DNA of 64,000 bases from a virus (IMGVR_UViG_3300029653_000083:74236-138235), one strand, 5' to 3'; numbered from the stretch's first letter, positions 23,050-58,448 are shown. The notes: generated by a model from the sequence alone, not told the origin. A program made the numbers and translations.

Positions 23050-23060
23050 TCTTGTTCCTT

Positions 23061-28439: not shown

Positions 28440-29344
28440 TAGTGTTCCTTCTTTGCGTGGTTTTTTCTACGGATGATGAGAATGGTGATGATGATTACCG
28501 CAAGCCAGAAGCCGCCGACGTACAGCATGAGCCATTGGTTCGTGTGGTCTTTCGGCGCGTTTTCGGGTTTGGGCGCGGGGTGTGGCATGCTGGCGCGCGT
28601 GCCGGTCACCAAGAGTCGCTTGTTGTTGATGCCGTATGGCGTGCAGGTCAATAGTGTGGAGAGGTCTTTTCCGGCGACGATTTTCAGTTTAGAAAAGTCG
28701 GATGGGTCTACCACACTAATATCCGTGACCTTGTAAGCGAGCATATGTCCGGCGGTTATCAAATAGAAGACGTCTCCCTTTTTGGCTTCACTGCCGAAGC
28801 CTCGCAGCTTGTCGAACATGAGCTGGTCGGCCAAACCCGTGTGAGCGGATATGACAGTATGCGTGTTCTTGCCACCGACGGGGAGACTGGAACCGTATAA
28901 GTGTCCAGCTCCAGCGGCCAACACATTTTGCGACGTGCCATGCCGGATGGGCAGGTTGATGCCCAAGCGTGGATATTTGATGGTAGCCATGACCCCATCC
29001 TTGGGGGTGGATAGTTGCTTCCGATACGTGTTGTCCGTTTCGGACTTGTTGACGCCCGTCCAAGGGTCTTCCGCCTCACCAAGAATGGGCTGGCCTTCCT
29101 CGTATAGGCGTTGATTGTAGGCTTGCGCGTCCGCATACTCTTGGGCGATTCGTTTCACGTCAGTGTTTTCCACGGCTTGCGCGTGGGAGTCGGTCAACCG
29201 GTTGGATTGGCTGCTGTTCGAAATCATGAGAATGAATGGGATGGTTCCGGACAGGGCGGATAGGATTAGGCAGAGAAGTCCCGCTATGGCTCGATTTCCC
29301 AAGCCTTTCGGTTTCGCCGTATGTTTTCCCAAAACCCCTCCCAT
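28439..29344 (-). CDS. class C (pilus-associated) sortase
   Basis: DPW lid motif, His motif ISAHTG, catalytic TLLTCTPYG, C-terminal TM anchor. Confidence 0.85.
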   Translation of the reverse strand: MGGVLGKHTAKPKGLGNRAIAGLLCLILSALSGTIPFILMISNSSQSNRLTDSHAQAVENTDVKRIAQEYADAQAYNQRLYEEGQPILGEAEDPWTGVNKSETDNTYRKQLSTPKDGVMATIKYPRLGINLPIRHGTSQNVLAAGAGHLYGSSLPVGGKNTHTVISAHTGLADQLMFDKLRGFGSEAKKGDVFYLITAGHMLAYKVTDISVVDPSDFSKLKIVAGKDLSTLLTCTPYGINNKRLLVTGTRASMPHPAPKPENAPKDHTNQWLMLYVGGFWLAVIIITILIIRRKNHAKKEH

Positions 29345-29451
29345 GCGGTTATAAAGAATCTAAAAAGTGGCGTGTCGATATTTGGGTTCCCGACACGCCA
29401 AGCGGAACATTTCATGCTTTTCCAACCGTCAAACGGTCAGAAAAGTTTTCT

Positions 29452-29479
29452 CATACGGCAGTATTCCAATCTCCAATCT
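29452..29479 (-). promoter_or_regulatory. conserved element motif 2, copy c
   Basis: GATTGGAGATTGGAATACTGCCGTATGA (gene orientation), ~115 nt upstream of sortase start, overlapping pilin 3' end. Confidence 0.45.
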
Positions 29480-31209
29480 CACGCCTTGCGACGAAGCAGC
29501 AGGGCGGAAGCGCCAGCCAACAGGACGGTCATCACGCCGAAGATGGACAGCCAGACCGCACCGGTCTTCGGCATGTCAGCGATGTTGCGGGCGTTGATGA
29601 CGGTCACTCCATCGTCACTGGTCTTGGAGGCCAGATGGTTGGCATCATCCTTGAACTTGGTGAGGGACGAAGTGCTGGTGTTATGGTCTTTGGACTGGGC
29701 CACGCCAACGGTCAGAGTGAACTCCGGCAGAATGCTGCCGCCGAACGGACTCTTGGTTTCAGTCACCGTGTAGGCACCGTACAAGCCCTTCAAGGTGATG
29801 ACGCCATTGTTCTTATCGGTGGTGGTGATGTCGGCGCTTGCGGTAGCGGCCTCAGTCGAGTCGGCAACACGATACTCGTTATCACCCACCTTGACGAACT
29901 TGACGATATTGCTCTTGGCATCCTTGATGTTGAACACGGCACCCGCGAGCGGAGCATTGTTCGTATCGGTCTTGGTCAGAGTGAACTTGCCGACGTACAC
30001 GTAGTTGGTGTCGCCCGGAGTCTTCTCATGGTCGGTGACGGTGTTCGGATTATGGGAGTATTCGACCTCGCTCGTGTTGGTGTCAACACCGTCCACGTGG
30101 GCGTTCTTGTTCACGGTCATGTCATAAGTGACAAGCACTTCCGCATCGACCGGGAACGTGGTCTTGGCGGCGATGATGTCGGAAGAACCATCAGCGGTCG
30201 GGGCGAACAGGATATGGAACTTGCCCGCCTCGGTCGTCACCTTGTAATCCTTGCCAGCAGTCAAAGCCTTACCACCGACAGTGACATTCACACTATCCGG
30301 GTTGAAAGTCAGACCATCCGAATACGTATCGTTGAGCGCATAATAATAATGGTCGTAGCCAGTCCAAACAGGCACCGCGCCGCCCATCGTGAAAGAGACC
30401 TTCTTGCCGATGGAGGTCTTGGCTACCGCATAATATTTCTTCCCTGCTTGGCGAGCCCCCTCATCCTCATGGTCCTCACCGATTTTCTCATCCACATCAC
30501 CATTCTCAACAGAGGTGATAGCCTTCCTGACTGCGGCGTCATGCACCTTATAGTCCACGGTGCCCAGCGTGTAGGTCTTGTCGCCGTTCTTCAACGTGGT
30601 CTTGCCGTCGATGCCGGTGCCGTTGAACATGACGATGGACGCCTGACCGGCCGTGGTGGTGTCCACGACCGCATACACGCCCGGACGGACTGATGCGGTC
30701 ATATGCTTGGCGTCGGCGCCCTTGGCGAACGCGGTGCCCTTGTCGCCGGTGACGGCGGCCTCGTTCTTCAACTGGTCGATGAAGTCACGAAGCTTGCCAG
30801 CCCACGGGCTGTTCTCGGAATCAAGGAGATTCTGCACGACCCACACCATCGGATTGGACGCATTATAGTCGTATCCGGCAGTCTGGTCTTTCTTGGACTG
30901 GGTGTCAATATGGGCTTTAGTCAGTGCGTCAGCAATGGCAGAAGCCTTGCCCGCGTCAATCAGGTCAAAGCCGGTAATATTAGTACCATCAGTCTGCGCA
31001 TACGAATAGTAGGCGAGCGGCACAGCCTTCAACGTGCGATTGCTAATATCACCATTAGCAGCGACGGTCAACGTCTGACGAGCAGCCTCACCAAGCTTGG
31101 ATGCGTCAACACGAGTATCAGCCGCCATGGCGGAGCCAACTCCAGCCAAACCCATGGCACCGGCCACAAGCGTGGCGACCGTTGCCTTCAACAGGTTTTT
31201 GGTTTTCAC
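29479..31209 (-). CDS. sortase-dependent pilin / fimbrial subunit (MPKTG sorting signal, E-box)
   Basis: Signal peptide; E-box-like YTVTETKSPFGG; C-terminal ADMPKTG + hydrophobic + RRKA; adjacent class C sortase. Confidence 0.7.
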   Translation of the reverse strand: MKTKNLLKATVATLVAGAMGLAGVGSAMAADTRVDASKLGEAARQTLTVAANGDISNRTLKAVPLAYYSYAQTDGTNITGFDLIDAGKASAIADALTKAHIDTQSKKDQTAGYDYNASNPMVWVVQNLLDSENSPWAGKLRDFIDQLKNEAAVTGDKGTAFAKGADAKHMTASVRPGVYAVVDTTTAGQASIVMFNGTGIDGKTTLKNGDKTYTLGTVDYKVHDAAVRKAITSVENGDVDEKIGEDHEDEGARQAGKKYYAVAKTSIGKKVSFTMGGAVPVWTGYDHYYYALNDTYSDGLTFNPDSVNVTVGGKALTAGKDYKVTTEAGKFHILFAPTADGSSDIIAAKTTFPVDAEVLVTYDMTVNKNAHVDGVDTNTSEVEYSHNPNTVTDHEKTPGDTNYVYVGKFTLTKTDTNNAPLAGAVFNIKDAKSNIVKFVKVGDNEYRVADSTEAATASADITTTDKNNGVITLKGLYGAYTVTETKSPFGGSILPEFTLTVGVAQSKDHNTSTSSLTKFKDDANHLASKTSDDGVTVINARNIADMPKTGAVWLSIFGVMTVLLAGASALLLRRKA

Positions 31210-31388: not shown

Positions 31389-32786
31389 TTAGTTTCCGGA
31401 CTGTTCGGAACCTTTCCCACCTAGTGCGGAACCGGCGGCATGACCGGCCACCATACTGTTCAGCAAGGCTTTCAAATCGATGCCCAAGGATTGAGACAAT
31501 CCCTCACTCAACTGGCTCACACTGTTCACCGTGTCGCCCACGAGCTTCGTGCTGTTTCCGTCGCCATACATGGTGATGTGGTCAACCTTGGTGAGCGGTT
31601 CGGCGGCGGCTCGAACCATGTCGGGGAGAATCTGAATGTACTGTTGGGCGAGGATGTACGTGTTGTTCATCGAGTTGTACGCCTCGCCCTGAGCGCGGAT
31701 TGCCTCCGCCTCGCCCACGCCCTTGGCCTGTGCGGCGGAACCTTCAGCCTTGCCTTTGACCTCGGTCGCGTGCGCGTCCGCGTCGGCGGTGGATTGGGTG
31801 GCCTGAGCCTCCTGCTGGCGTAGATACAGTTCCGCATCCGCATGCTTGCGGGTCGTGTACACTTGCGCGTCGGCCTGCTGTTCGGCGGCGTATCTGTCGG
31901 CGTCGGCCTTCTTGCGGATGGTCGCGTTCAGTTTTTGCTCTTCGATTTCGGCGTTCTTCTGTTCGAGGACTGCCTTCTTTTCGGCGGCGGCGATTTCCGC
32001 CTCCTGCTCCTTGACCTTGAGGGTCTTGGACTGTTCGGCGGCGGTGATGCCCTTCACCGCGTCAGCCTCGGCCTGCGCCTTGTCGGAGATGGATTGGAGT
32101 TCGGCTCGTTTCAGGTCGAGCTGGTTCTGACGGACGGCCACATCCTGTTCCGCGTTGATGGACGCGAGCTTCGCATTCCGGCTGATTTCGGCGGCCATTT
32201 CAGCGCCCATGTTGGCGATGACGTTCTGACGGTCGGTGAAGTCTTGAATGTTGAACGTGGTCAATTGAAGGCCAAGCCGTTCCATGTCCACGCGGGCGGA
32301 TTCGGCCACGGTCGCAGCGAACGTGTCCCTGTTCTCCATGAGCTCCTTCAACTCGGTCTTGCCGATGACCTCGCGCAGCTTGCCCAAAAGCACCTGCGTC
32401 ACGTCCTTCTCCATGCGCTCCTTGGACTGGTTCAGATAGTTCTTGGCGGCGTTCTCCAACGCCTTCACCTGTTTACCGTTCTCGTCCACGGTCATGGTCT
32501 CGGATGCTATCTGGAAGTTCGCGACGGCGTTCACGTCGATGAGGATTGCGTCCTTCGTCGGAATCGGCGTGTCGGTTCTCAGGAGCGACTGCACCGCTCC
32601 GAGGGAGAGCTAGTCCACGCGCATGATGAAGGGTATGATGAACGCGCTTCCGCCGGAAACGAAGCGTCGTCCACCCGGCCCGGTGATGACCATGACTCGG
32701 TCGGCGGGGCAGACCTTGTAGCTTGCGGTTGCGAGCAGGATGATGAGTATCGCCACTGCCGCGACGATTATCAATGTTGTTGGCAT
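31389..32786 (-). pseudogene. flotillin / SPFH (band 7) family protein interrupted by in-frame TAG at ~32610-32612
   Basis: N-terminal TM + SPFH start (MPTTLIIVAAVAIL..GGSAFIIPFIMRVD) is in the same frame as ORF 31389..32594 (LSLGAVQSLLRTDTPIPTKDAILIDV..); separated only by one amber codon. Confidence 0.6.
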
Positions 32787-32837: not shown

Positions 32838-34178
32838 TCAGAACTCGTTTTCGAAACCTGCGGCCATGTCCGCGAATTTGGAGCATTCGCCCATGAACGC
32901 AAGGTTGAACGTTTCGGTAGGCCCGTTGCGATGTTTGGCGAGAATCACGTCGGCTTCGCCCGGACGTTCCTCACGGTCGTAGTATTCGGGACGATGCACG
33001 AGAAACACCATGTCGGCGTCCTGTTCGATGGAACCGGACTCTCGCAGGTCGGACAGTTCCGGCTTCTTGTCGGCACGCTGTTCCGCATTACGGTTCAACT
33101 GGGACAGCACGACCACGGGACATTGCAGTTCCTTGGCGAGCATTTTGCATTGGCGGGAGAAGTTCGACACTTCCTGCTGACGGTTCTCGACGGTTTTACC
33201 GGAGGACATGAGTTGCAGGTAGTCGATGACGATAAGCTTCAACCCGTTGACCTTGCGGCTGAGAGCACGGCATTTCGCACGGATGGTGCTCATGTTGATG
33301 ATGGCGGAATCATCAACCCACAATGGTGCCTTCTCGACCTGATGGCAGAGCGCGTTGAGTTTGTTCCAATCATTCGAGTTCAGATTCTCGGGATGTTGGA
33401 ACGATGCGAGACGGATGCCTGTTTCGGCTGCGAACATGCGTTGCATGAGTTCGTGACCGCCCATTTCCAGACTGAAAATCACAGTCGGCAGACCCTTGTG
33501 CAGTGCGGCGTTACGCGCGAAATCCATGCCGAGAGTACTCTTGCCCATGCCCGGACGTCCCGCGACTATGACCATTTGTCCGGCTTGCAATCCGTGTGTC
33601 AACGCGTCGATGTCACGGAAGCCGGTGGGTGTTCCGAACTCGTTCGGATTCTGTGACATTTCATCCAACTGTTGGAGCATTTCGTCGGACAGACGGTATG
33701 CGGTCTTCAACTCGTCGTCTTCGGAACGACTCGAATCCTCCAACGAGAACGCGGCCTCCAACGACTTGCTGAGCACATCTTCGGCTGACGCGTCGGACAC
33801 GTTGCTCATCTGCTGCAACTGTTGTCCGACCACGTTGATGTGGCGGAGGATGGCCGCGTCACGAATCTGCTTGATGAAATAGTCACTGTTGTTCGACGTG
33901 GGCGCGGAGCCGACAAGCTGGGCGATATAGTCGATACCGCCGACCTGTTCCAACTGTCCGTTGTCCATCATGTGCGAGGACAGCATTTGCGCGTCCACAC
34001 GGTTATTGTCTGCGGCCAGTTCCTTTATATTATGAAAGATGGTCTGGTTGGTCGGCTGGTAGAAGTCCTCTTCGGAAAGTTGGCTGATGACCTTGTCCAA
34101 CGTTTCCGAGTCTTGAAGCATGGCCCCCAACAATACTTGTTCGGCCATATCCTTGTGGATTGGTGTGGGGACGCTCAC
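32838..34178 (-). CDS. dnaB: replicative DNA helicase DnaB
   Basis: Walker A GRPGMGKST, Walker B LIVIDYLQLM, RecA-like C-domain and DnaB N-domain. Confidence 0.9.
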   Translation of the reverse strand: MSVPTPIHKDMAEQVLLGAMLQDSETLDKVISQLSEEDFYQPTNQTIFHNIKELAADNNRVDAQMLSSHMMDNGQLEQVGGIDYIAQLVGSAPTSNNSDYFIKQIRDAAILRHINVVGQQLQQMSNVSDASAEDVLSKSLEAAFSLEDSSRSEDDELKTAYRLSDEMLQQLDEMSQNPNEFGTPTGFRDIDALTHGLQAGQMVIVAGRPGMGKSTLGMDFARNAALHKGLPTVIFSLEMGGHELMQRMFAAETGIRLASFQHPENLNSNDWNKLNALCHQVEKAPLWVDDSAIINMSTIRAKCRALSRKVNGLKLIVIDYLQLMSSGKTVENRQQEVSNFSRQCKMLAKELQCPVVVLSQLNRNAEQRADKKPELSDLRESGSIEQDADMVFLVHRPEYYDREERPGEADVILAKHRNGPTETFNLAFMGECSKFADMAAGFENEF

Positions 34179-40598: not shown

Positions 40599-41363
40599 AT
40601 GAACGAAGGAACCTATGGGCTGGAGACCCTGAAAGCCGACTATCATACGATACTCGGCTACGATATCGGCTATCTCACCGCGGAATCCTATCCACTGTTC
40701 GCACCCTATCGTGCGAAAACCAAGAACAGTTTCTCCGGTAGAGTACCGAGACTGTTAAGCATAATCATCACCACTCTCATTAACACGCCAAGCCGCGAAT
40801 GGGATGCGGAAACCCGCACGCTCACCATCGGCGACGACTTCTTCTTCCTCGCCAACAAATGCGGTTTGAACAGTGGAGGAGACGGACGCACTACCGTCCG
40901 GAACCAGCTTCTCATGCTCTCGTCAATCCAGTTCACCGGAGCGGACGGAGTCAAAGTCACGCCGGTCGAACACACCGAAATCACCGCCGACAGTCTCACT
41001 ATCGAGCATCGGAAAATCACGTTCACGGAACCGTTCGTAAAAATGATGACAAGGAACGTCCGGCAGATGCCGTTGAAGTGTCTGTACCCCAACGCGGGTA
41101 GCGCCATAGCGATAGACCTGCTCGCATTGGCGGCATTGTATTGTCCGAACGACCATAGGCTCATCATCGAACGGGCAGACCTTCCATCACTGCTTCCAGC
41201 AAGCAGGCAAAGCCTCTCCAAGCAGAATCTTCTAAATAGATTCAAGGAGTTAAACGACAGTCAGAACGAGTGGACGTATCGTATAACGAAATACAGTGTG
41301 ACCATCAGCCCGTTCGGAGTGTACTCATCCGAAGACGCTTTGAGATTACGTCGCAGACAATAG
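40599..41363 (+). CDS. hypothetical protein (254 aa)
   Basis: ORF track; AAGGAG RBS; degenerate motif 1 upstream. Confidence 0.5.
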   Translation: MNEGTYGLETLKADYHTILGYDIGYLTAESYPLFAPYRAKTKNSFSGRVPRLLSIIITTLINTPSREWDAETRTLTIGDDFFFLANKCGLNSGGDGRTTVRNQLLMLSSIQFTGADGVKVTPVEHTEITADSLTIEHRKITFTEPFVKMMTRNVRQMPLKCLYPNAGSAIAIDLLALAALYCPNDHRLIIERADLPSLLPASRQSLSKQNLLNRFKELNDSQNEWTYRITKYSVTISPFGVYSSEDALRLRRRQ

Positions 41364-41429: not shown

Positions 41430-42152
41430 TCAGATTTTCAGCTCATCGATAACGGAAAGGTCAACACCGTCACCCCAATTATCGACAATCTTGCTCAGGT
41501 TCTTACGCATTCCGGCAGGAGACTGGTCGTCAACCGGACGTCCGAAATTCTTCTCCGGCGCGACCGCGTTCAGCACGGAGAACAGCAGGTTGGTCATATC
41601 CTTGCCCTGCGCGAACACCAACGTCACCTCTGCGGCAATCATGCCCGGCTCGGCTGTAGCCAACCCTTCCAACGCGGACGCGAACTCAGAGATTCGACGT
41701 TGGTTCTTCGGCTCAGTCAATGCGTCCAGCACTGCTTCCGGAGTGCTCTTCTTCGTATCAGTCAACGCCTTGGCGAGAGAAACCACACGCTCGTCATCCA
41801 ACGATTTGACAAGAGGAATCAGCTTCTTGCCGAACTGTTCCTCGATGTGCGGCATGGTCTTCTCACGCGGTTTGCGATTGGAACGGCCCTTACCCTTCCC
41901 CCTCGGCTTGTCTTCGGTTTCAGTGGACTCAGCGTCCACGTTCACATCCTCACCATCAGCCGGTGCGGACACGTCAGAGACAGGCTCCGAACTCTCCTGA
42001 TTAAGAGAATCGGATTCCGTCTGCGACTCCTCGACAGAAGACTGCTCCGGTTCAGCATAATTGTCGGAACCGTAACCATTGTCCTGCTCCGACTGCTGGT
42101 TGTTGTTGAATCCCCAATTGGTGAAGTCTGGCATCATACCTTCTTTCGTCAT
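41430..42152 (-). CDS. hypothetical acidic protein with disordered N-terminus
   Basis: ORF track. Confidence 0.5.
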   Translation of the reverse strand: MTKEGMMPDFTNWGFNNNQQSEQDNGYGSDNYAEPEQSSVEESQTESDSLNQESSEPVSDVSAPADGEDVNVDAESTETEDKPRGKGKGRSNRKPREKTMPHIEEQFGKKLIPLVKSLDDERVVSLAKALTDTKKSTPEAVLDALTEPKNQRRISEFASALEGLATAEPGMIAAEVTLVFAQGKDMTNLLFSVLNAVAPEKNFGRPVDDQSPAGMRKNLSKIVDNWGDGVDLSVIDELKI

Positions 42153-42199
42153 ATCCAGCGAACACTCCGGTCGTACAGGCTGTTAACAGTCGGAACGAG

Positions 42200-43040
42200 G
42201 TGTTCTGTATTTTCAATTCACGAGTGTAACGCCCGACAGCATCCCTAAACGGGGAAAACGGGAAAAACAATTCCCCGCGCCGCCCGCGCCGGTAGTTCCA
42301 ACAGAAAAGCGGAACCAAAAAGAGTCCCCAACAAATATGAAAAAAGGAACAACACCCGACCATTATCAGAAAAAACATGAAAACCATCCAGTCCACGCCG
42401 GTAGGTCAACATGAATAGCAGACTCAAAAAAAAGAGAAAAACCAAAAATCAAAAAGACTAAAAGAAAGGAAGCACTACCCACCAAAAAATCAGAAAAAGA
42501 AACCAAACACCATCACATCAAAAAAGAATAACCAAGAAAATCAGAAAGAAAAGAAAAACCAAAAGGAAGAAAAGGAGAATATAAGAGCAGCAATCTTAAT
42601 CAAATAGAAGCAACAGAAGAACAGGACAATAAAAGAAGAAACACCTACCCCTAAATCGGGAATACAACGTATGAAAACAACAGAAGCAACGCAACCATCC
42701 ACAAAGGAACAGCACATCAACCCATATGGCATACAAAACAGAAGAACAACAGCACCAAACACCCCAAGAAACAAAAAAAGCCAAGCAACAGCACCACAAG
42801 GCAACAGGTCAAGCACCAGCACCAGCACAAACAACAACCAACAGCCACTACAACAACAAAAACAACAAAAAGGTCAATAGTCTCACTAACAAGGTCAACG
42901 ACAATCAAAACAAGGTAACATCAATACAGGAACAGCCAATGCAATGAAAAAAAGCAACAGCAAAACCAACAAAAAACTAAATATCAAAAAACTATAAATG
43001 CCAGAACTCGGACAAAACCGTAAACGTTCCGATGAAAACA
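42200..43040. other. strand-asymmetric A/C-rich low-complexity non-coding region (candidate oriT / leading-region control region)
   Basis: Plus strand almost devoid of T over ~0.85 kb, poly-A tracts and (A)nC repeats; divergent intergenic position next to T4SS genes. Confidence 0.4.
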
Positions 43041-43047
43041 ACGGAAC

Positions 43048-44262
43048 ATGACCCATCAGGAGGCGGTCTTATTGGAAAAACGAACGATTTCCCTGATAAT
43101 CGGCTCCGGAGGGCTTCTCACAACCATCAAAAAGGCCCTTACGAGAGCTGGAAACATGCGTTGGCAGGTGCCCGCCGCAGACAATATTCAAGCACAGGCC
43201 GACTATCTGGTAAGACATCCGGTGCCCTCCGGGTTCAAGGGAATCATCTTCACTGACAGGGCTGGAAACTGGCTTCCGATAGCCAACGCCGGATACATGG
43301 TCTACTGGTGCAACACCGGTCAGATACCGGTCGGAGCCATAGGCATGAGCGAACAGATGTTACGCATGAGCGTGGCTGATTTCGCACGGACTTATTGGGG
43401 AATCCAGCTTGCGGACAAGCGTCTCGTAGTCGATATCCTCCAAAACAAAGTGAAGGAAACTGCGGTTCTCCTACCCATCACATCCAACACCGGAGGAGTG
43501 GGGAAGACCACGTCCAGCCGACAGTTGGCAGACCGTGCGTCGCAAGCCGGATTGCGTGTTCTGCTCATCGACGGCAACATCAGACAGTCCAGTCAACGTA
43601 GTTTTTTCGACCCGAGACAGGACAAGCCATTGCATACGATAGCCGACTGGCGACCGGGCATGCAGGTGCAGGTCGGAGCCAATCGAGGACGTGACCTTGG
43701 GGTTCCATACGACATCTGTTTCGCACCTCCAGCAGGCGTCGGAGTGGACTGGCAGATATACCGTCAGTACATCCAAGCGGCACGCCGACTGTGGGATTTC
43801 GTCGTGCTCGACCTTGACCGAATCAGCGCGGACGATTTGGATGATAGGGAGAATATCGCCAACGGTTTACTGCTTCCATACATTCAATCGGGAGACCCTT
43901 GTCTGGTTATCATCAAGGCTGGAAGGCAGACGCAGATAGACGCGTTGAATCTGCTGACGGCCTTGGCTGAGCATCATCTTCCGAAGGAACTCATCGGAAT
44001 CAAGGACACCGTTCCGGTCGGACTGCAAGGTTACAGACGACTCGACTATACGAGATACGGAACGTTTCTCGGAACCGAATATCAGACGGTCGAGGCAAGC
44101 AACCATATCGCCAACGGTGATGTCAGATGGGATGACCCCGGTCTTGCTTTTGCTAGGGAGAACATTCTTAACTGGGCTTTGCCCGACCGTGGTTTCAATC
44201 CGGAAAGATTCAATCCGAACGCTAAGAACAGTGAAGGAAAGAAAGGTCGTGGGCGTAAGTGA
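43048..44262 (+). CDS. MinD/ParA/CpaE-superfamily P-loop ATPase with ~140-aa N-terminal domain
   Basis: Deviant Walker A ITSNTGGVGKTT; LLIDGN; architecture like CpaE/TadZ. Confidence 0.55.
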   Translation: MTHQEAVLLEKRTISLIIGSGGLLTTIKKALTRAGNMRWQVPAADNIQAQADYLVRHPVPSGFKGIIFTDRAGNWLPIANAGYMVYWCNTGQIPVGAIGMSEQMLRMSVADFARTYWGIQLADKRLVVDILQNKVKETAVLLPITSNTGGVGKTTSSRQLADRASQAGLRVLLIDGNIRQSSQRSFFDPRQDKPLHTIADWRPGMQVQVGANRGRDLGVPYDICFAPPAGVGVDWQIYRQYIQAARRLWDFVVLDLDRISADDLDDRENIANGLLLPYIQSGDPCLVIIKAGRQTQIDALNLLTALAEHHLPKELIGIKDTVPVGLQGYRRLDYTRYGTFLGTEYQTVEASNHIANGDVRWDDPGLAFARENILNWALPDRGFNPERFNPNAKNSEGKKGRGRK

Positions 44263-53714: not shown

Positions 53715-54068
53715 ATGGAAGAGGTAGGAAACCAAGCCGCTGACACTGCGGGACGAACGTTGGGTGACGTGCTCACTGTGTTCTTCTCTTGGGTGTTCAC
53801 GCCGACGGGCGCAATCCTCACTTTGTTGATGATTATTATTTGCGCCGGTAGTGTCGTGTTCGCCATCTTGCAGAAAAGCACCCGCGCGTTGATGACCGCG
53901 TTGACCATCTGCGCGTTCCTGTTGTTCGTGTGGATTATCACCGGTGTCTTGGAGGTCATGGGTTTGCCCGTGCGTGAATGGATGAAGGATATCGCGGCCC
54001 AGATGCCTGATATCGGTTCACTGTTCATGGAGTTCCTTCGCAAACTGGTGTTCACTGCTACCGAGTAA
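53715..54068 (+). CDS. small membrane protein
   Basis: ORF track; AAGGAG RBS. Confidence 0.45.
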   Translation: MEEVGNQAADTAGRTLGDVLTVFFSWVFTPTGAILTLLMIIICAGSVVFAILQKSTRALMTALTICAFLLFVWIITGVLEVMGLPVREWMKDIAAQMPDIGSLFMEFLRKLVFTATE

Positions 54069-54076
54069 AAACGAAA

Positions 54077-54119
54077 GAAAGCCGTATCCGTTTCATCGCG
54101 GACGCGGCTTTCTGTTTTT
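54077..54119 (+). terminator. rho-independent terminator
   Basis: GAAAGCCG-loop-CGGCTTTC then TGTTTTT. Confidence 0.6.
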
Positions 54120-54287
54120 CTGTTCCGCCTGTAAACCTGTACGCCGTTCCATTGTTTTACTGGAATGTTTCTCCGAACGGTTTTCCAGTTCGGCGTGCCG
54201 ACTTTTCGCCGTTGTTATCATCGAAACAAAAAACATACCCCCACCATGATTCCGTCCACACCGGAAGCAGAAAAAGGAAACCAGAAC

Positions 54288-54950
54288 ATGAGAGTCAAAA
54301 ACCATACGGTCATCATCACCGTCGCAATCATCAAAGGCGGTTCAGGAAAAACAACCACATCAATGGCATTGGCCGAACTATTGCACAAACGCGGGGAACA
54401 AGTCACAGTCTTGGACTCCGACAACACGGGCGGCGCGACCATGTGGGAAATGTACGTCGAACAGGAAAACCGCAGACGCAGACAGGACAATCCGGACGCG
54501 AAACCATACACGCTCGGCTTCCCCGTCGTGCAAACCAACGAAGCCGTATTGAACAATCCGGAACTCATCCGCGAAAAATATTCAGGCTGGGTCATCATCG
54601 ACACCCCACCGTCCGACGCGGGAGTGGTACAGGCGGCGATAAACGCGGGCGACGTGGTGATAATCCCATGCCAGCCATCCGTATCCGATTTGACCCACGC
54701 GGGACGCACATACGCGGCGGCACGCAACGGCATCGTCCTGTTGACACGCGTGAAGCCGAGAACGAAACTCGCCCGGAACAGCATCAGCGAACTGGATGAG
54801 GAAGGCATCGCACGGTTCGAAACCGTCATCACGGAACGTGAAGCCGTCAAGAACATGTACGGCACAACCGAAATCGACAACAAGGAATATTCCAGCGTCG
54901 TGCAGGAACTCATCGACTATCTGTCTGAAATCAATCTGGTGGAAGAATAA
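54288..54950 (+). CDS. parA: ParA family partition ATPase
   Basis: Deviant Walker A AIIKGGSGKTTT; internal ATG with AAAGGAAA RBS. Confidence 0.8.
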   Translation: MRVKNHTVIITVAIIKGGSGKTTTSMALAELLHKRGEQVTVLDSDNTGGATMWEMYVEQENRRRRQDNPDAKPYTLGFPVVQTNEAVLNNPELIREKYSGWVIIDTPPSDAGVVQAAINAGDVVIIPCQPSVSDLTHAGRTYAAARNGIVLLTRVKPRTKLARNSISELDEEGIARFETVITEREAVKNMYGTTEIDNKEYSSVVQELIDYLSEINLVEE

Positions 54951-54980
54951 AAACAGGAGCAGGGGAGTAAGTAGGCAATC

Positions 54981-55436
54981 ATGGTCAAGAACATCAAACG
55001 CAACGCTTTCGCAACAGGAATGCAGGACAAGCGTGACATGCGCCCATTGGAATCACCGGAAAACATTAGCGAACCGAACACGGAGCAGGAACCGACACAG
55101 GCCGTTCCTGAAACGCGGGAACCGTCAGACCAGTCAGTCCAAACGTCCGCCGACATGCACGCCCAAACGCTCACGGAGGAAGAAGCCGACCGTCGGGCAC
55201 GGCTCATCACCGACATAACCCATCCTGAAACACCGGCACCATCCGAAACGCATCAGCCGCCGAAAGAGAAAAGAATCGGCAGCAACGTCACCGTCGAGAA
55301 CTGGCGGGCATGGAAATTGAAAAGCATCGAATACGGGACGAAACAGGCTGTATTGTTGAATGCCGCGATGGACTACTGCTTCCAGCAGGGACACTTCGAC
55401 CAGACGCTCATCGACAAGTACGAGCAGAAGGAATAG
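54981..55436 (+). CDS. putative partition adaptor / centromere-binding protein
   Basis: Immediately downstream of parA; disordered acidic N-half, conserved C-terminal domain. Confidence 0.35.
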   Translation: MVKNIKRNAFATGMQDKRDMRPLESPENISEPNTEQEPTQAVPETREPSDQSVQTSADMHAQTLTEEEADRRARLITDITHPETPAPSETHQPPKEKRIGSNVTVENWRAWKLKSIEYGTKQAVLLNAAMDYCFQQGHFDQTLIDKYEQKE

Positions 55437-55544
55437 GTTCCGGTATACTAATATTCGGATGAACAAAAAGACTTCACCGAAGTCTTCCAGATGGGGCGAC
55501 ACTCACAACAGAGCGGACGCCCCATTGGTTTCTCTAAAACACAG

Positions 55545-56414
55545 TTAGGATACGAACGGGTTCATCGGCTCTTCATCGTCTGCCACGCCCGCGTCCGTGT
55601 CGGCATCATCGTTAGCCGACTGGATGGAAGGGAGACTGGGACGGACTATGACACCGGTTTCCGTGACTTCGACTTTCAATTCCGGCCATGCGAGCTGAAT
55701 CTTCTCCAACGCTCTCTTGAACTTGCGTCTGAATTCACGCATCGGATACCCGTCATACTTGAACTGCATCAACAGGGCTTCCCATGTCACGCGCGTCTCA
55801 TGGCGCATGGCATGGGCACGGAACGCGAGCCACTGGTATACGTCCAACGCGAGGGCATCGTTGCGAAGCTGGCGAACGATGGATGGGTTGAGAGGAACGC
55901 AGTTCTCCGTCAGCAGTGCCCACATCTCGGGGGAGAACTTTATGTAAGACTTCTTCGCCCCGTCATCGTCGTAGTTGAGTGACACTATGTTGGCAACGAA
56001 GAAAGAGTGGGCTGTGAATCCGCCAGTGGACCAGTTTTCAAGGACGATGGAGGTTGTCGCTAGATTCCTGACCATGTTCATTACCGTCTCCTTGCTGGAC
56101 CCTGAATAGTGGATTCCAGTGCTCTTGCAGAATGAACGATAGGTGTCGTCCAAGTAGACGGTATGATTCTCTGCATCCACACAGTCGCTACTGTTCTTGA
56201 TGAGAGAACGGATGTGGATGAGGAACATTCTGGGGGCTGCTCCGTATGCCCATTCTCCGGTGGAGGCCGAGACTGTGATTGACGAGTTTCCGTTAATTTT
56301 TCTCATGGACTGAGATTCCGGTTTCGACTGCGGCAGGAAACTCAGCTTAGACATAACCGACGGCGTGTAGTTGTATGTATTCGACTTGTAGAGGTCTTTG
56401 CTATGATTGGTCAT
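55545..56414 (-). CDS. plasmid replication initiator (Rep, iteron-type)
   Basis: wHTH-like ALDVYQWLAFRAHAMR..W..L..QF; iterons directly upstream. Confidence 0.65.
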   Translation of the reverse strand: MTNHSKDLYKSNTYNYTPSVMSKLSFLPQSKPESQSMRKINGNSSITVSASTGEWAYGAAPRMFLIHIRSLIKNSSDCVDAENHTVYLDDTYRSFCKSTGIHYSGSSKETVMNMVRNLATTSIVLENWSTGGFTAHSFFVANIVSLNYDDDGAKKSYIKFSPEMWALLTENCVPLNPSIVRQLRNDALALDVYQWLAFRAHAMRHETRVTWEALLMQFKYDGYPMREFRRKFKRALEKIQLAWPELKVEVTETGVIVRPSLPSIQSANDDADTDAGVADDEEPMNPFVS

Positions 56415-56656
56415 GTGACCACGACTCCTTCAGTGTTAGGTGGTTGCCATTCCCCGGCTGGTTCCAACAGTGCGGGGATTTTCTTTTCTCAGAACAGTAT
56501 ACGTCACTACCTACCCCTTATAGATTCTTTTCTACCCTCCGTCTTTTTGTAGCTTCGAACTGCTTGCGAAAAAGGTCGAACGGGGCATGAGGAAGTGCCA
56601 CAGAACGTGAGAAAGCGGAACCAAAAGTTGGAACTTCTGACACACATAGACAAAAA

Positions 56657-56741
56657 AGTGGGCACTTTCGACACGGAAAGTGGGCACTTTCGACACGGAA
56701 AGTGGGCACTTTCGACACGGAAAGTGGGCACTTTCGACACG
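56657..56741. repeat. iterons: 3.8 tandem copies of 22-bp AGTGGGCACTTTCGACACGGAA
   Basis: Perfect direct repeats read directly; ~240 bp upstream of rep start. Confidence 0.85.
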
Positions 56742-56779
56742 CTTTCAACCCGAAACGCCTACTCCCATAAGGGATTTCG

Positions 56780-56930
56780 ACACCTGCAAAAGGTATACAA
56801 AAGATTACAAAAGATATTAATATCCCTTGTATTCCCTTCTTTTTCAAAAAACAAGTTTTTCAAAAAGAAGCAAAAAATCAAAAAATTAGAATAAAACCAT
56901 TTTTTGATTCTACGTTCAGACAGGGTGAAC
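56780..56930. other. AT-rich region (candidate DNA unwinding element of oriV)
   Basis: ~75% AT, adjacent to iterons. Confidence 0.45.
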
Positions 56931-57167
56931 CCTGAGCAACGATTATCCTCAATGCTGTTTTTCGTTTCAACAACGTTGACGTTTAGACAGGTCTGAATGT
57001 TTTCGAGGGAAGAGAGAAAAAGAAAAGTTCCGGAAAAAGAAAAACAGAGAAGCCGACACCGCCGGTGGATGCATGTAGAAAACCCCGAAGCCGATATAGG
57101 AAACCTCGGACGGAAGGTAGACTTGAAGACAGTGCATGACAAGCGGAAATGAATTCGGAGCGGAACT

Positions 57168-58448
57168 GTGTTCGGAAGCAAGAAAGACAAGAACGGCAAA
57201 CAGCCGATGGGCCAGCAGAAGGCGAAGCAGAACCCGAACAATGAGACCGACCTGTTCGCTGATGAAAAAGAACGCAAGGACGAGATAGAACTCACCGCGT
57301 GGAAGAAGGCGTTGAAGAACACACAGAAGTGGAAGGTTCTCATCATCCTGTTCATCTGCACCGGTCTGGTCGCCCCGATGATTTCCGTCCGCGCAATCAA
57401 CACGTTGAACGAAATGGGTTCCTACCTGACGGAGAAGTACAAGGAAATCAGCGGCGACAAGCCCGGCAAGCAGGTCGCATTGCAAGCCGTGTACAGTTGG
57501 CTGGATGATGACAAGGGCGCTTTCCAATATGGGTATGCGAATTTGTGGTGGAATGGTGCCACTGAAGTCAGCACTTCCACGTCGGATGATTCCGATGGTG
57601 CCACGACTCAGTATTGGAGCCATCAGATGTCCCTCACCGATAAGTCGGATGGAAGCACGAGGGATATCACCCAGCTTGTCGCCGTCACCGATGGTGTGGC
57701 TACTGCGGTGGGAACGCCGACCGTGCTTCCCAAGACCGTCACTTCGAACAGCAATACGGACACGTACCGTCCCGACGGTTACATTCAGCTTGACCAGAAC
57801 ACAAGCCTGACGAACGTGGTCAGCGCTTGGTCTAAAGCGTACATCGGCAAAGACGCCAACGCTTTGACGGTACTTGTCGGAGACCCGAACAGCGACCACA
57901 TGTACCAGCCAGCAAGCTTGGGTTCGTATCTGAACTCGTCCCTCGACTGGCTTGTGCAATGCACCAAGGACGGCAAGACCGTTGACAAGCAGAACAAGTC
58001 CGACAATCCCGAATGGGCGGCGGCGAGCGTCAGCATCTCGTTCAAACCCTACGAGAAGAAGGTTGACGCAAGCACCGCCAACGACCCGAACGCGGACACT
58101 GGTTCAACGAGCAACGTGGAGACGAGCGTCACCGTCCTCATCCATAATCCGACCCGTGGTAGCGCGAAAATCGTTGACTGGGGTGCCGAAGGCAGTCTGA
58201 CCACGTTGAAGGCGTTCAGCAATGCCATCGACCGTTCGCTGATTGGCTCTTCCAGCAGTGATGACGATGATGATTCTTCCGATTCCAGTTCATCGGATTC
58301 CGATAGCGGTTCCGGTGATGACGGTTCCGACAATGACGATTCCGACTCCTCCGATTCGGATTCGTCCGACAACAACGGCAGTAGTTCATCCCAGAATTCC
58401 GATGACGGTTCCGTAACCGGCGACCCCAATGAGGGGCCGAACGACTAA
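57168..58448 (+). CDS. bitopic membrane protein with Ser/Asp-repeat C-terminal tail (possible TcpC/VirB8-like)
   Basis: Single N-terminal TM; ~300-aa extracellular domain; C-terminal SSDDDDDSSDSSSSDSDSGSGDD repeats. Confidence 0.45.
   Translation: MFGSKKDKNGKQPMGQQKAKQNPNNETDLFADEKERKDEIELTAWKKALKNTQKWKVLIILFICTGLVAPMISVRAINTLNEMGSYLTEKYKEISGDKPGKQVALQAVYSWLDDDKGAFQYGYANLWWNGATEVSTSTSDDSDGATTQYWSHQMSLTDKSDGSTRDITQLVAVTDGVATAVGTPTVLPKTVTSNSNTDTYRPDGYIQLDQNTSLTNVVSAWSKAYIGKDANALTVLVGDPNSDHMYQPASLGSYLNSSLDWLVQCTKDGKTVDKQNKSDNPEWAAASVSISFKPYEKKVDASTANDPNADTGSTSNVETSVTVLIHNPTRGSAKIVDWGAEGSLTTLKAFSNAIDRSLIGSSSSDDDDDSSDSSSSDSDSGSGDDGSDNDDSDSSDSDSSDNNGSSSSQNSDDGSVTGDPNEGPND

What the first reader, a model, noticed from the sequence alone, without database searches (positions are those of the whole stretch)
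54288..56930. Iteron-type theta replicon: parA, adaptor, divergent rep, 3.8 copies of a 22-bp iteron and an AT-rich DUE
AGTGGGCACTTTCGACACGGAA is repeated head-to-tail 3.8 times at 56657-56741, ~240 bp upstream of a Rep-like gene (LDVYQWL wHTH). A ~150-bp 75% AT tract (56780-56930) follows. This indicates the window is from an autonomously replicating plasmid rather than an integrative element. No integrase, recombinase or tRNA was seen.
Basis: partly seen in the sequence, partly recalled or inferred. Interest (0 to 1): 0.5.

Follow-up and report, generated by a model that had tools for sequence, protein, structure and literature searches.

The report
Secondary Rep–iteron module of Bifidobacterium megaplasmid
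The repeats are real binding-site repeats for a plasmid replication-type protein, but they are probably an auxiliary second Rep–repeat module of a common ~220-kb Bifidobacterium adolescentis gut megaplasmid, whose main origin probably lies about 100 kb away.

Summary
A perfect 22-bp × 4.0 array lies at 56655-56741, 240 bp upstream of a 289-aa RepA_C-family gene, beside the most AT-rich 150 bp of the window and next to parA and a small adaptor gene.

The window does come from a plasmid, a ~214-239 kb B. adolescentis megaplasmid syntenic with pMP7017. But this Rep belongs to the pMP7017 RepA type (34% identity, same iteron core, same upstream layout). The proven initiator there is RepB.

Plasmids carrying a Rep 98% identical to the window's, with the same iteron, also carry a RepB-type gene ~105 kb away. 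That gene has at least 12 downstream iterons, a perfect DnaA box and an AT-rich stretch.

The module is not decaying. Rep dN/dS is about 0.17. Every relative keeps a 22-bp-period array. The AT tract is nearly invariant.

The Rep N-terminal half, its promoter and the iterons form an ~800-bp ancient-allele cassette (dS 0.8-0.9) inside a near-identical backbone (dS 0.02-0.13).

Verdict: a functional auxiliary Rep–iteron module and a new member of a known kind. Origin activity is unproven.

The parts
54120..54287 (+). Conserved parA upstream region with repeated TTCGCCG-like boxes. Candidate par operator or centromere (inferred only).
   Evidence: The alignment with relatives shows blocks such as GGTTTT..GTTCGGCGTGCCGAC..GTTCGCCGTTGTTATCATC conserved. 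No strong repeat was found.
54288..54950 (+). parA: a small Walker-type partition ATPase (220 aa) with no N-terminal HTH, i.e. type Ib-like.
   Evidence: Pfam AAA_31, CbiA and MipZ; NCBIfam ParA_partition E 7.6e-31, below its cut-off. It is 58% identical to the pMP7017 'ParA family protein' at the syntenic place.
54981..55436 (+). 151-aa partner of ParA ('adaptor'). It has an invariant 27-aa N-terminal peptide, a variable P/Q-rich linker and an invariant ~55-aa C-terminal strand-helix-helix (RHH-like) domain.
   Evidence: Alignment A3. The AF2 model has low confidence, with helices at 105-118 and 121-135. No Pfam, NCBIfam or PDB sequence match. It is 31% identical to the 118-aa ORF next to pMP7017 parA.
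55465..55525 (.). Two hairpins between the convergent par operon and rep. Likely terminators.
   Evidence: Inverted repeats at 55468-55475/55479-55486 and 55491-55498/55518-55525.
55545..56414 (-). rep: a 289-aa RepA_C-family protein with a tandem winged-helix fold, of the pMP7017 RepA type.
   Evidence: PF04796 E 8.7e-10, above the gathering score. AF2 pLDDT 76; Foldseek hits RctB domains 2-3 (E 4e-8), 8ac8, RepE54 and 2z9o. 34% identical to pMP7017 RepA. dN/dS 0.16-0.19. Identical to WP_217730354.1.
55945..56745 (-). Hypervariable allele cassette: Rep codons ~1-160, the promoter/5'UTR and the iteron array.
   Evidence: This stretch is 61-83% identical at the nucleotide level to relatives, against 96-100% in the flanks. 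dS is 0.80-0.90 here, against 0.02-0.13 in ParA, p151, p426 and the Rep C-terminal half.
56451..56478 (-). Conserved 5'UTR hairpin (TCCCCG...CGGGGA) followed by GGCAAC and the RBS AAGGAG.
   Evidence: It is conserved in all five lineages and has a counterpart (TACCCG..CGGGTA, GGCAAT) upstream of pMP7017 repA.
56496..56501 (-). Putative -10 hexamer of the rep promoter (TATACT on the rep strand), 82-87 nt upstream of the ATG.
   Evidence: Read from the sequence. It is conserved in L012. The position agrees with the mapped 71-nt leader of pMP7017 repA. Inference only.
56626..56647 (-). Fifth, degenerate iteron. On the rep strand it reads GTGTCAGAAGTTCCAACT, which is the iteron variant used by related plasmids.
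   Evidence: compare.
56655..56741 (-). Iteron array: 4.0 perfect head-to-tail copies of 22 bp (rep strand CGTGTCGAAAGTGCCCACTTTC).
   Evidence: Contigs with the same or a 98-99% identical Rep have 2-6 copies. All relatives have arrays of period 22.
56774..56784 (-). Isolated half-iteron (GGTGTCGAAAT), conserved in relatives.
56787..56911 (.). AT-rich tract (77.6% AT). It contains three ~10-bp ACAAAAGAT repeats (56787-56817) and a 35-bp palindrome (56836-56870). DUE-like, and nearly invariant across lineages.
   Evidence: It is 99% identical in L012, where the adjoining cassette is 61-83% identical.
56943..56951 (+). DnaA-box-like TTATCCTCA (1 mismatch). Its core, ATCCTCAATGC, is conserved in relatives. 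Significance uncertain.
   Evidence: (16 such one-mismatch sites in the window).

Best explanation
The 22-bp array is the binding-site array (iterons) of the RepA_C-family tandem winged-helix protein encoded 240 bp away. Array, promoter, rep and the adjoining conserved AT-rich tract form a self-contained 1.7-kb 'RepA-type' module, the counterpart of the repA module of the Bifidobacterium megaplasmid pMP7017. In the window it is inserted between a type-Ib-like parA/small-adaptor operon and the next backbone gene of a ~214-239 kb B. adolescentis megaplasmid.

Proposed mechanism:
- Rep binds the phased repeats cooperatively and controls its own expression.
- The conserved C-terminal domain reads the conserved GTGTCRAAA half of each repeat.
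- The variable N-terminal domain reads the variable half, so each Rep allele travels with its own iteron variant.

The plasmid's indispensable origin is most likely not this module. It is most likely a second, RepB-type iteron origin about 100 kb away, outside the window. The window's module is therefore an auxiliary Rep–iteron system kept by selection. It is at most a conditional or secondary origin and a specificity (incompatibility) determinant.

What is shown and what is inferred:
- Shown here: anatomy, family, fold, conservation pattern, co-occurrence of the two rep types, and relocation of the module.
- Taken from the pMP7017 experiments on the homologous module: Rep–repeat binding, repression, dispensability.
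- Inferred: the domain/half-site assignment and the auxiliary role.
For: 1. Array, Rep family and fold.

2. Same kind as pMP7017 RepA:
- The best PLSDB hits are pMP7017-family RepA proteins. Identity is 34% at 156 bits to RepA, against 27% at 79 bits to RepB.
- The repeat core is shared (GTGTCGAAAG here; GGTGTCAAAATTCTA in pMP7017).
- The order of elements is shared: three TTGTAA/TTGTAT short repeats, a palindrome, the repeats, then a 5'UTR hairpin + GGCAA + ATGACCAA (PMC8313286).

3. pMP7017 experiments (PMC8313286):
- RepA binds its eight repeats cooperatively (Hill coefficient 6.3, Kd ~122 nM).
- The repA promoter is repressed 3.7-fold when the plasmid is present.
- The repA fragment does not replicate, and a repA knock-out is viable.
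- RepB with its downstream iterons is the minimal replicon.

4. Two rep types on one molecule:
- IMG/VR contig 3300045988_174446 has a Rep 98% identical to the window's, with the identical iteron (L046), and a RepB-type gene (L075) ~105 kb away.
- The same holds on contigs 178845, 172457 and 179945 and on Logan ERR8477316_59.

5. The RepB-type locus has at least 12 dispersed 20-mers (CGTGGCCTTTCGGACACCTT, both orientations), a perfect TTATCCACA DnaA box and an AT-rich stretch downstream of the gene, as in the proven pMP7017 oriV.

6. The module is functional, not a relic:
- dN/dS is 0.16-0.19.
- All 20 related loci examined (Rep 59-99% identical) have 2-7 copies at period 22.
- The AT tract is nearly invariant.

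7. Allele cassette: window 55945-56745 is 61-83% identical to relatives with dS 0.8-0.9, while the flanks are 96-100% identical with dS 0.02-0.13.
- In L012 only the N-terminal 160 aa and the second half of the iteron differ. The C-terminal half and the first half of the iteron are unchanged.

8. The module is relocatable. The window is collinear with pMP7017 on both sides, but pMP7017 has only a 92-bp gap where the window has rep + iterons, and its repA lies ~56 kb away.

9. The two systems share no iterons.
Against: - Identity to pMP7017 RepA is only 34%, so the negative replication result may not transfer. That result was one fragment in one plasmid-free host.
- A nearly invariant AT-rich, DUE-like tract that travels with rep is hard to explain by autoregulation alone. 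It points to origin-type DNA opening.
- In the window the array lies ~170-255 bp upstream of the putative transcription start rather than over the promoter as in pMP7017, so simple promoter occlusion is not evident.
- A RepB-type gene was shown on a contig with a 98%-identical Rep allele, not on the window's own molecule.
- GC skew in the window is weak and settles nothing.
Confidence: 0.55

Rival explanations
1. One reading: this module is a fully competent iteron-type theta origin, the main origin or one of two co-equal ones. Rep monomers bind the four iterons, open the adjoining AT-rich tract and load a helicase, possibly the plasmid's own DnaB.
For: - Complete iteron-origin anatomy: a tandem winged-helix Rep, phased perfect repeats and the most AT-rich 150 bp of the window.
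- The AT tract is nearly invariant across lineages, while rep is under purifying selection.
- The module moves as a unit that includes the AT tract.
- The wider RepA_C family supplies the annotated Rep of many plasmids of 11-110 kb.
- The plasmid encodes its own DnaB, which could explain why the pMP7017 repA fragment failed when tested alone.
Against: - The orthologous pMP7017 module failed to replicate and is dispensable.
- A complete RepB-type origin with a perfect DnaA box coexists on the same plasmids and is far more conserved: 93-100% identical where this Rep is 83-84%.
- There is no significant DnaA box here.
- Cumulative GC skew shows a broad maximum, not a minimum, near 58 kb. This evidence is weak.
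Confidence: 0.25
2. A Rep-derived DNA-binding system with no origin activity. Rep bound to the array acts only as an autoregulated regulator, or as a pairing (handcuffing), incompatibility or exclusion determinant, possibly linked to the neighbouring partition operon.
For: - pMP7017 RepA binds its repeats, represses its promoter and is not needed for replication.
- The ancient-allele cassette in an almost identical backbone looks like a specificity determinant under frequency-dependent selection or repeated allele exchange.
- The module sits inside the par region.
Against: - The conserved AT tract with its palindrome and short repeats has no obvious role in a pure regulator.
- No second set of these iterons was found near the RepB-type origin, in the rest of the window or in 275 kb of RepB-type loci, so there is no visible target other than itself.
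- Average dN/dS of ~0.15 in the variable half shows no positive selection.
Confidence: 0.13
3. The 22-bp array is the centromere (parS-like site) of the adjacent ParA/151-aa system rather than a Rep site.
For: Type Ib partition loci use arrays of direct repeats close to the operon, and the array is only 1.2 kb from the par genes.
Against: - The DNA-binding C-terminal domain of the 151-aa protein is invariant in relatives whose repeats differ. The repeats instead change together with the Rep N-terminal half.
- In pMP7017 the homologous repeats lie at repA, ~56 kb from the homologous parA, and are bound by RepA in EMSA.
Confidence: 0.04
4. A decaying remnant of a former replicon left by an old cointegration, with no present function.
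For: The authors of the pMP7017 study raised this possibility for repA.
Against: - The ORF is intact in all relatives, dN/dS is 0.16-0.19, and the identical protein is seen on 600 contigs.
- Arrays are perfect and retained everywhere.
- The AT tract is nearly invariant.
Confidence: 0.03

Closest known systems
repA module of Bifidobacterium breve megaplasmid pMP7017 (KM406416, repA 97215..96166; Dineen et al. 2021, PMC8313286)
   Same: - It is the closest characterised Rep: 34% identity over 275 aa, E 6e-50, with the RepA_C domain at the N-terminus.
- The repeats lie upstream of rep and share the GTGTC(A/G)AAA core.
- It has an AT-rich region with three TTGTAA/TTGTAT short repeats, a palindrome, and a homologous 5'UTR hairpin and start.
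- It coexists with a RepB-type replicon on a ~200-kb Bifidobacterium megaplasmid with the same backbone synteny.
   Different: - Here there are perfect head-to-tail 22-mers (4 copies, 2-7 in relatives). pMP7017 has eight 15-bp cores in two groups at ~21-bp spacing that overlap the promoter.
- The Rep is 289 aa rather than 364 aa; the C-terminal extension is missing.
- The module sits between the par operon and the p426 homologue, and ~100 kb from repB. In pMP7017 it is next to FtsK-like genes, 23 kb from repB.
- The host is B. adolescentis.
- Rep is the most variable gene of its neighbourhood here, whereas pMP7017-family RepA proteins are 90-97% conserved.
RepB–iteron origin of pMP7017 (minimal replicon 118220..120584)
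   Same: - RepB belongs to the same Pfam family (RepA_C).
- The window's plasmid family has a 56-57% identical RepB-type gene with at least 12 downstream 20-mers sharing the TGG(C/A)C..TC core, plus DnaA boxes and an AT-rich stretch.
   Different: This is not the module in the window. The window Rep is only 27% identical to RepB, its repeats are upstream and tandem rather than downstream and dispersed, and the two iteron sets do not cross-occur.
Classical iteron plasmids: F RepE, R6K pi, pPS10 RepA, RK2 TrfA
   Same: - The predicted tandem winged-helix fold matches RepE54, the RepE dimer and a Rep-DUE complex in the PDB.
- The repeats are ~22-bp direct repeats in helical phase.
- An AT-rich tract adjoins them.
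- parA/parB-type genes are nearby.
   Different: - There is no sequence-level match to Rep_3 (PF01051) or to any PDB chain.
- There is no significant DnaA box.
- Autonomous replication is unproven, and was negative for the closest relative.
- There is no clear inverted-repeat operator at the promoter.
Vibrio cholerae chromosome-2 initiator RctB (domains 2-3; PDB 5tbf, 5ubf)
   Same: It is the best structural match of the AF2 model: E 3.6e-8, TM 0.53-0.58 over ~280 residues.
   Different: Sequence identity is 14-15%. RctB has further domains and uses 12-mers, 39-mers and crtS. Nothing of that kind was seen here. The match reflects the shared tandem winged-helix core.
Multi-replicon plasmids (for example IncF with FIA, FIB and FII replicons; from general knowledge)
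   Same: There is more than one Rep–origin module on one large low-copy plasmid. One module is dispensable and free to diverge in specificity.
   Different: The Rep families are unrelated. Whether the second module fires at all is unknown here.

Membership tests
Pfam RepA_C (PF04796), plasmid-encoded RepA | The HMM score is above the curated gathering threshold. | tested here: met
   39.6 bits against a cut-off of 26, E 8.7e-10, residues 57-203. All homologues found also carry PF04796.
Pfam Rep_3 (PF01051), classical iteron initiators | The protein matches the HMM. | tested here: not met
   Rep_3 is not listed among matches up to E 0.1. phmmer against PDB sequences finds nothing. The similarity is at fold level only.
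Iteron-type theta replicon | The initiator has a tandem winged-helix (WH1-WH2) fold. | tested here: met
   AF2 model with pLDDT 76 and pTM 0.69. Foldseek top hits are RctB domains 2-3, 8ac8, RepE54, 2z9o and WH1 6h24. This rests on a prediction, not a solved structure.
Iteron-type theta replicon | Several direct repeats of ~17-22 bp lie in helical phase next to rep. | tested here: met
   4.0 perfect 22-bp copies, plus a degenerate copy and a half copy. Period 22 is conserved in all relatives.
Iteron-type theta replicon | An AT-rich unwinding element adjoins the iterons. | tested here: inconclusive
   Composition and position fit: 77.6% AT at 56787-56911, the most AT-rich stretch of the window, nearly invariant in relatives. 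Unwinding itself cannot be tested here.
Iteron-type theta replicon | DnaA box(es) lie in the origin. | tested here: inconclusive
   Only TTATCCTCA (1 mismatch) at 56943, and 16 such sites occur in the window by the same criterion. Its core is conserved in relatives. The RepB-type locus, by contrast, has a perfect TTATCCACA.
Iteron-type theta replicon | Rep binds the repeats specifically. | not testable with these tools
   Shown by EMSA for pMP7017 RepA and its repeats. Here it is supported only by the joint variation of Rep alleles and repeat variants.
Iteron-type theta replicon | The rep + repeats fragment replicates autonomously. | not testable with these tools
   Not testable here. The corresponding 1829-bp fragment of pMP7017 gave no transformants in B. 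breve, and repA could be disrupted.
pMP7017 RepA-type module | The Rep is closer to RepA than to RepB, and the repeat core and upstream layout are shared. | tested here: met
   156 vs 79 bits. The GTGTCRAAA core, TTGTAA repeats, palindrome and 5'UTR hairpin are shared.
pMP7017 RepA-type module | It coexists with a RepB-type replicon on the same plasmid. | tested here: met
   Both are on the same contig for a 98%-identical Rep allele and for four further alleles. This was not shown for the window's own molecule, because the RepB-type locus lies outside the 64 kb.
pMP7017 RepA-type module | It occupies the same position in the plasmid backbone. | tested here: not met
   The backbone is collinear, but rep + iterons occupy a site that is a 92-bp gap in pMP7017, and pMP7017 repA lies ~56 kb away.
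Type Ib partition locus (small ParA plus small centromere-binding protein) | A small Walker-type ParA without an N-terminal DNA-binding domain. | tested here: met
   220 aa with the P-loop at residues 9-20. Matches CbiA, AAA_31 and MipZ, and ParA_partition at E 7.6e-31, below NCBIfam's cut-off.
Type Ib partition locus (small ParA plus small centromere-binding protein) | A ribbon-helix-helix centromere-binding partner encoded downstream. | tested here: inconclusive
   The conservation pattern (N-terminal peptide, linker, strand-helix-helix) fits. The AF2 model has low confidence (pLDDT 54) and no family or PDB match exists.
Type Ib partition locus (small ParA plus small centromere-binding protein) | Centromere repeats next to the operon. 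| tested here: inconclusive
   There is a conserved parA upstream region with short CGCCG-type boxes but no clear repeat family.

The most novel reading that the evidence does not exclude
The Rep N-terminal domain and its iterons form an ancient, exchangeable specificity cassette. Alleles are ~40 times more diverged at silent sites than the flanking backbone. The cassette is kept, alongside an invariant AT-rich tract, in the partition region roughly opposite the main RepB-type origin of one of the most prevalent plasmids of the human gut. This could be a second Rep–iteron system that is maintained for plasmid-versus-plasmid recognition rather than for housekeeping replication. Possible roles are incompatibility escape or exclusion among co-circulating megaplasmids, a conditional origin used on entry into a new host, or coupling of replication completion to segregation.
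Probability: 0.15. Interest if true: 0.65.

Novelty: new member of a known kind. Interest (0 to 1): 0.35.

Why it matters
- Anyone wanting to build vectors from, cure, or type these very common B. adolescentis megaplasmids should not assume this textbook-looking module is the origin. The exact Rep is found in 910 database blocks.
- The RepB-type locus is the safer choice of origin.
- The module is a natural system for asking why large plasmids keep a second Rep–iteron pair.
- The allele cassettes give ready-made swaps for mapping which Rep domain reads which iteron half.
- The 22-bp array also breaks short-read assemblies, and its copy number in them (2-6) is unreliable.

Tried and rejected
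- **PLSDB, near-DNA search** of 54000-57200: no match, so this plasmid lineage is absent from PLSDB.
- **PDB sequence searches** with Rep and with the 151-aa protein: nothing useful.
- **Rfam** on 54000-57400: only a sub-threshold chance hit.
- **Look-ups of DnaB, p426 and P0123**: no record shared between the list for P0123 (RepB-type) and the lists for the window's own proteins (Rep, DnaB, p426). The link came from IMG/VR instead.
- **GTDB species representatives**: no relative of this Rep.
- **pMP7017 RepB iteron core** (TGGMCTATCRSTG) is absent from the RepB-type loci of this family. Their own 20-mer was found with a repeat search.
- **GC skew**: the window's cumulative curve has a weak maximum near 58 kb. 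My plain cumulative curve for pMP7017 puts its minimum at 119 kb (repB) but its maximum nearer 60 kb than the published 37.4 kb. I judged this too noisy to use.
- **Fold search of the 151-aa model** was not run, because the model's confidence is too low.
- **Centromere reading of the array** and **remnant reading** were both rejected (see rivals).
- **Literature**: no paper on a B. adolescentis megaplasmid family was found in the held library.


Full report
**1. The observation**

Tandem Repeats Finder reports one outstanding array in the window: 56655-56741, period 22, 4.0 copies, 100% matches, score 174. It occurs nowhere else in the 64 kb, and none of 100 dinucleotide-preserving shuffles gave any match. 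The array is real and is not a dispersed element.

It ends 240 bp from the start codon of a minus-strand ORF, 55545-56414 (289 aa). The stretch 56780-56930 is 72% AT and 56787-56911 is 78% AT. The most AT-rich 150 bp of the whole window starts at 56767.

Closer reading adds four features:
- a degenerate fifth repeat at 56626-56647
- a half repeat at 56774-56784
- three ~10-bp ACAAAAGAT repeats at 56787-56817
- a 35-bp palindrome at 56836-56870

No tRNA was found. No integrase domain was found in about 36 ORFs scanned.

**2. The proteins**

- **Rep.** It matches Pfam RepA_C above the gathering score (39.6 vs 26 bits) and does not match Rep_3. An AlphaFold2 model built on 36 homologues (pLDDT 76) finds solved iteron-type initiators as its best matches. 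These are RctB domains 2-3 (E 4e-8, TM 0.53-0.58), a Rep-DUE complex (8ac8), RepE54, the RepE dimer and a WH1 domain. The 'wHTH Rep' reading holds at fold level.
- **ParA (54288-54950).** It is a small Walker-type partition ATPase.
- **The 151-aa ORF.** It has no family match. Its homologues share an invariant 27-residue N-terminal peptide, a variable P/Q-rich linker and an invariant C-terminal strand-helix-helix segment. That is the layout of a small centromere-binding partner of a type Ib ParA. The structure model is too weak to confirm a ribbon-helix-helix fold.

**3. Where the window comes from**

The Rep sequence is identical to RefSeq WP_217730354.1, 'replication protein RepA [Bifidobacterium adolescentis]'. 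It is seen on 600 contigs, the longest 239 kb. It is indexed in 910 blocks of the assembly collection, with many contigs of 214-224 kb whose start points differ. Two such contigs (221.7 and 222.1 kb) begin or end inside the iteron array. That is what a circular ~220-kb molecule broken at its one unresolvable repeat would give.

Contigs with the same or a 98-99% identical Rep carry 2, 3, 5 or 6 copies of the 22-mer. These are mostly short-read assemblies, so the numbers are not reliable.

Window 37.5-60.9 kb is collinear, gene for gene and inverted, with 55.8-34.8 kb of the B. breve megaplasmid pMP7017. Protein identities are ParA 58%, the 886-aa ATPase 59%, p426 52%, the DUF1524/GmrSD_C protein 51% and DnaB 54%.

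The claim that the window is from a plasmid, not an integrative element, is well supported.

**4. Which Rep this is**

pMP7017 encodes two RepA_C proteins. The window Rep is closer to RepA (34% identity, 156 bits, E 6e-50) than to RepB (27%, 79 bits). The best PLSDB hits are all pMP7017-family RepA proteins.

The similarity extends to the non-coding layout. Upstream of pMP7017 repA lie, in order:
- three TTGTAA/TTGTAT short repeats
- a palindrome
- eight GGTGTCAAAATTCTA repeats
- a leader with a TACCCG..CGGGTA hairpin followed by GGCAAT and ATGACCAA (PMC8313286)

The window has the same order: CTTTTGTA repeats, the AT tract with its palindrome, CGTGTCGAAAGTGCCCACTTTC repeats (same GTGTCRAAA core), then TCCCCG..CGGGGA, GGCAAC and ATGACCAA.

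**5. What is known about that kind of module**

Dineen et al. 2021 (PMC8313286) reported the following for pMP7017:
- An 1829-bp fragment with repA and its upstream repeat region gave no transformants in B. breve.
- repA could be disrupted in the plasmid.
- RepA binds the repeat/promoter probe with strong cooperativity (Hill coefficient 6.3, Kd ~122 nM).
- The repA promoter is 3.7-fold less active when the plasmid is present.
- repB with its 17 downstream 20-mers and an AT-rich region is the minimal replicon, and repB could not be disrupted.

At 34% identity this is a strong lead for the window's module, not a proof.

**6. A second replicon on the same plasmids**

The window holds only one RepA_C gene. 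RepB-type proteins 56-57% identical to pMP7017 RepB exist in a large cluster. One member, P0123, 'plasmid encoded RepA protein [B. adolescentis]', is on 932 contigs, many of 200-226 kb.

Both types were found on one contig in five cases:

| Contig | RepA-type (identity to window Rep) | RepB-type | Separation |
|---|---|---|---|
| Logan ERR8477316_59 (126.7 kb) | 59% | present | ~97 kb |
| IMG/VR 3300045988_174446 (190.9 kb) | 98%, identical iteron | 99% of P0123 | ~105 kb |
| IMG/VR 3300045988_178845 | 83% | 100% of P0123 | ~94 kb |
| IMG/VR 3300045988_172457 | 83% | 100% of P0123 | ~112 kb |
| IMG/VR 3300045988_179945 | 84% | 93% of P0123 | ~85 kb |

Downstream of the RepB-type gene lie at least 12 irregularly spaced 20-mers (CGTGGCCTTTCGGACACCTT, both orientations). 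There is also a perfect DnaA box TTATCCACA, a second box with one mismatch, and an AT-rich stretch. This is the anatomy of the proven pMP7017 origin; my scan recovered 17 cores in pMP7017 itself.

The two loci share no repeats. The two rep loci lie 85-112 kb apart, roughly opposite each other on a ~220-kb circle. In pMP7017 they are 23 kb apart.

**7. The module is kept by selection and is a hot spot of old variation**

Every related locus examined (20 loci, Rep 59-99% identical) has an array of period exactly 22, with 2-7 copies, at the same place. Each Rep allele class has its own repeat variant:

| Rep identity to window | Repeat variant (core) |
|---|---|
| 98-100% | ..GTGCCCAC.. |
| 88% | ..GTTCCAAC.. 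|
| 84% | ..GTGCCAAC.. |
| 81% | GTGGCAGAAGTTCCAAC |
| 67% | CCGTTCCACTTTCACCAAC |

Rep is under purifying selection, with dN/dS 0.16-0.19.

In plasmids whose ParA, 151-aa protein and p426 are 97-100% identical to the window's, Rep is only 83-88% identical. The nucleotide profile localises the divergence to window 55945-56745, which covers Rep codons ~1-160, the promoter and the iterons. That stretch is 61-83% identical, against 96-100% on both sides.

Silent-site divergence (dS) is 0.80-0.90 in the Rep N-terminal half. It is 0.02-0.04 in parA, 0.04-0.08 in the 151-aa gene, 0.10-0.13 in p426 and 0.024 in the Rep C-terminal half of L012.

The AT-rich tract next to the array is nearly invariant even between lineages with 59% identical Reps.

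These are old alleles exchanged into a young backbone, not decay. In L012 only the N-terminal half of Rep and the second half of the repeat differ from the window. This suggests that the N-terminal winged helix reads the variable half-site and the conserved C-terminal one reads GTGTCGAAA. This is an inference by analogy with RepE and pi.

**8. The module is relocatable**

Where the window has 1.7 kb of rep + array + AT tract (about 55437-57167), pMP7017 has only 92 bp between the homologues of the 151-aa gene and p426. Its own repA module sits ~56 kb away, next to FtsK-like genes. Rep, repeats and AT tract therefore move together as a unit, as a basic replicon cassette would.

**9. Weighing**

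Solid points:
- The repeats are the array of a Rep of the iteron class.
- The module is the RepA-type module of a two-rep Bifidobacterium megaplasmid.
- It is functional in the sense of being selected.

Whether it fires as an origin is open.

| Against an essential origin | For some origin-type activity |
|---|---|
| The pMP7017 experiments | The invariant DUE-like tract that travels with rep |
| A complete and much more conserved RepB-type origin with DnaA boxes on the same plasmids | The full iteron-origin anatomy |
| No significant DnaA box here | A plasmid-borne DnaB that could be a missing trans factor in the pMP7017 test |

GC skew in the window settles nothing.

I put 0.55 on 'auxiliary Rep–iteron module, main origin elsewhere'. 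I put 0.25 on 'competent origin', 0.13 on 'no origin activity, specificity or regulatory role only', 0.04 on 'centromere' and 0.03 on 'remnant'.

**10. Novelty**

The protein is already annotated as RepA in RefSeq, and the module type was described for pMP7017. I found no paper in the held library on the B. adolescentis megaplasmid lineage.

New here are the different position, the perfect 22-bp arrays, and the ancient-allele cassette limited to the Rep N-terminal half plus iterons. This makes it a new member of a known kind, of moderate interest.

Noticed in passing
window ~56873-56897 (compare L008 358-1240 and L092 190-1201): Two metagenome contigs from different samples carry a ~0.9-1.0 kb low-GC insert at the same point at the distal edge of the AT-rich tract. 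The cargos differ (a VanZ-like gene in L008, other small ORFs in L092). Both inserts are bounded by the motif GGTACGAAAAAAGCAGTCAAT, and L092 has a 24-bp duplication of the target. This is either a site-specific insertion hot spot or an assembly chimera.
   Followed up: partly
L096 1-1290 (window equivalent just left of 56958): One 223.7-kb contig has a transposon with a Mu/rve-type transposase and repeated GTGGCCTTGA..CGCAATAA end repeats. It is inserted between the AT tract and p426.
   Followed up: no
window 42000-43000: This is the second most AT-rich region of the window (GC 0.415, AT skew +0.54). It is packed with short A-rich tandem repeats (42247-42871) and lies just upstream of a second, 404-aa ParA-like ATPase (43048-44262), which is 57% identical to the pMP7017 'CobQ' gene.
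   Followed up: no
window ~37000; 32838-34178 (-): Gene orientation switches at ~37 kb: minus-strand genes to the left, plus-strand genes to the right. A plasmid-borne DnaB helicase (DnaB_C E 3e-97) lies close to the switch. Next to it is a flotillin/SPFH gene (31389-32594).
   Followed up: partly
window 40599-41363 (+): This 254-aa ORF has no Pfam match but shows weak similarity to Rep residues 58-120 (tblastn E 1.5e-4). It is 38% identical to a pMP7017 hypothetical protein. It may be a distant winged-helix relative.
   Followed up: no
window 19909-21138 (-); 8157-9011 (-); 22117-31209 (-): Cargo genes:
- a reverse transcriptase (RVT_1)
- an ArdC-N/IrrE-type anti-restriction protein
- a sortase-dependent pilus cluster: a 1792-aa RCC1/SdrD-repeat adhesin, a class C sortase and a backbone pilin
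   Followed up: no
IMG/VR loci L045-L075: Contigs of this megaplasmid family (up to 217 kb) are filed in IMG/VR as viral contigs.
   Followed up: no
L020-L034 (RepB-type loci): The RepB-type gene overlaps an upstream HI1420-type antitoxin-like ORF. It is followed by small SecE- and SecG-like genes, as in pMP7017. In L025 a CRISPR Cas2 gene lies ~5 kb away.
   Followed up: no
L009 1-60 and L010 1-20: Metagenome contigs of 221.7 and 222.1 kb start or end inside the 22-bp array. Array copy number in assemblies ranges from 2 to 6 for the same or a 98-99% identical Rep. The array limits short-read assembly.
   Followed up: partly
window 56594-56604 vs 56626-56637: GAAGTGCCACA and the reverse complement of AGTTGGAACTTC form an imperfect inverted pair of iteron-like half-sites between the array and the putative promoter. 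This may be an operator.
   Followed up: no
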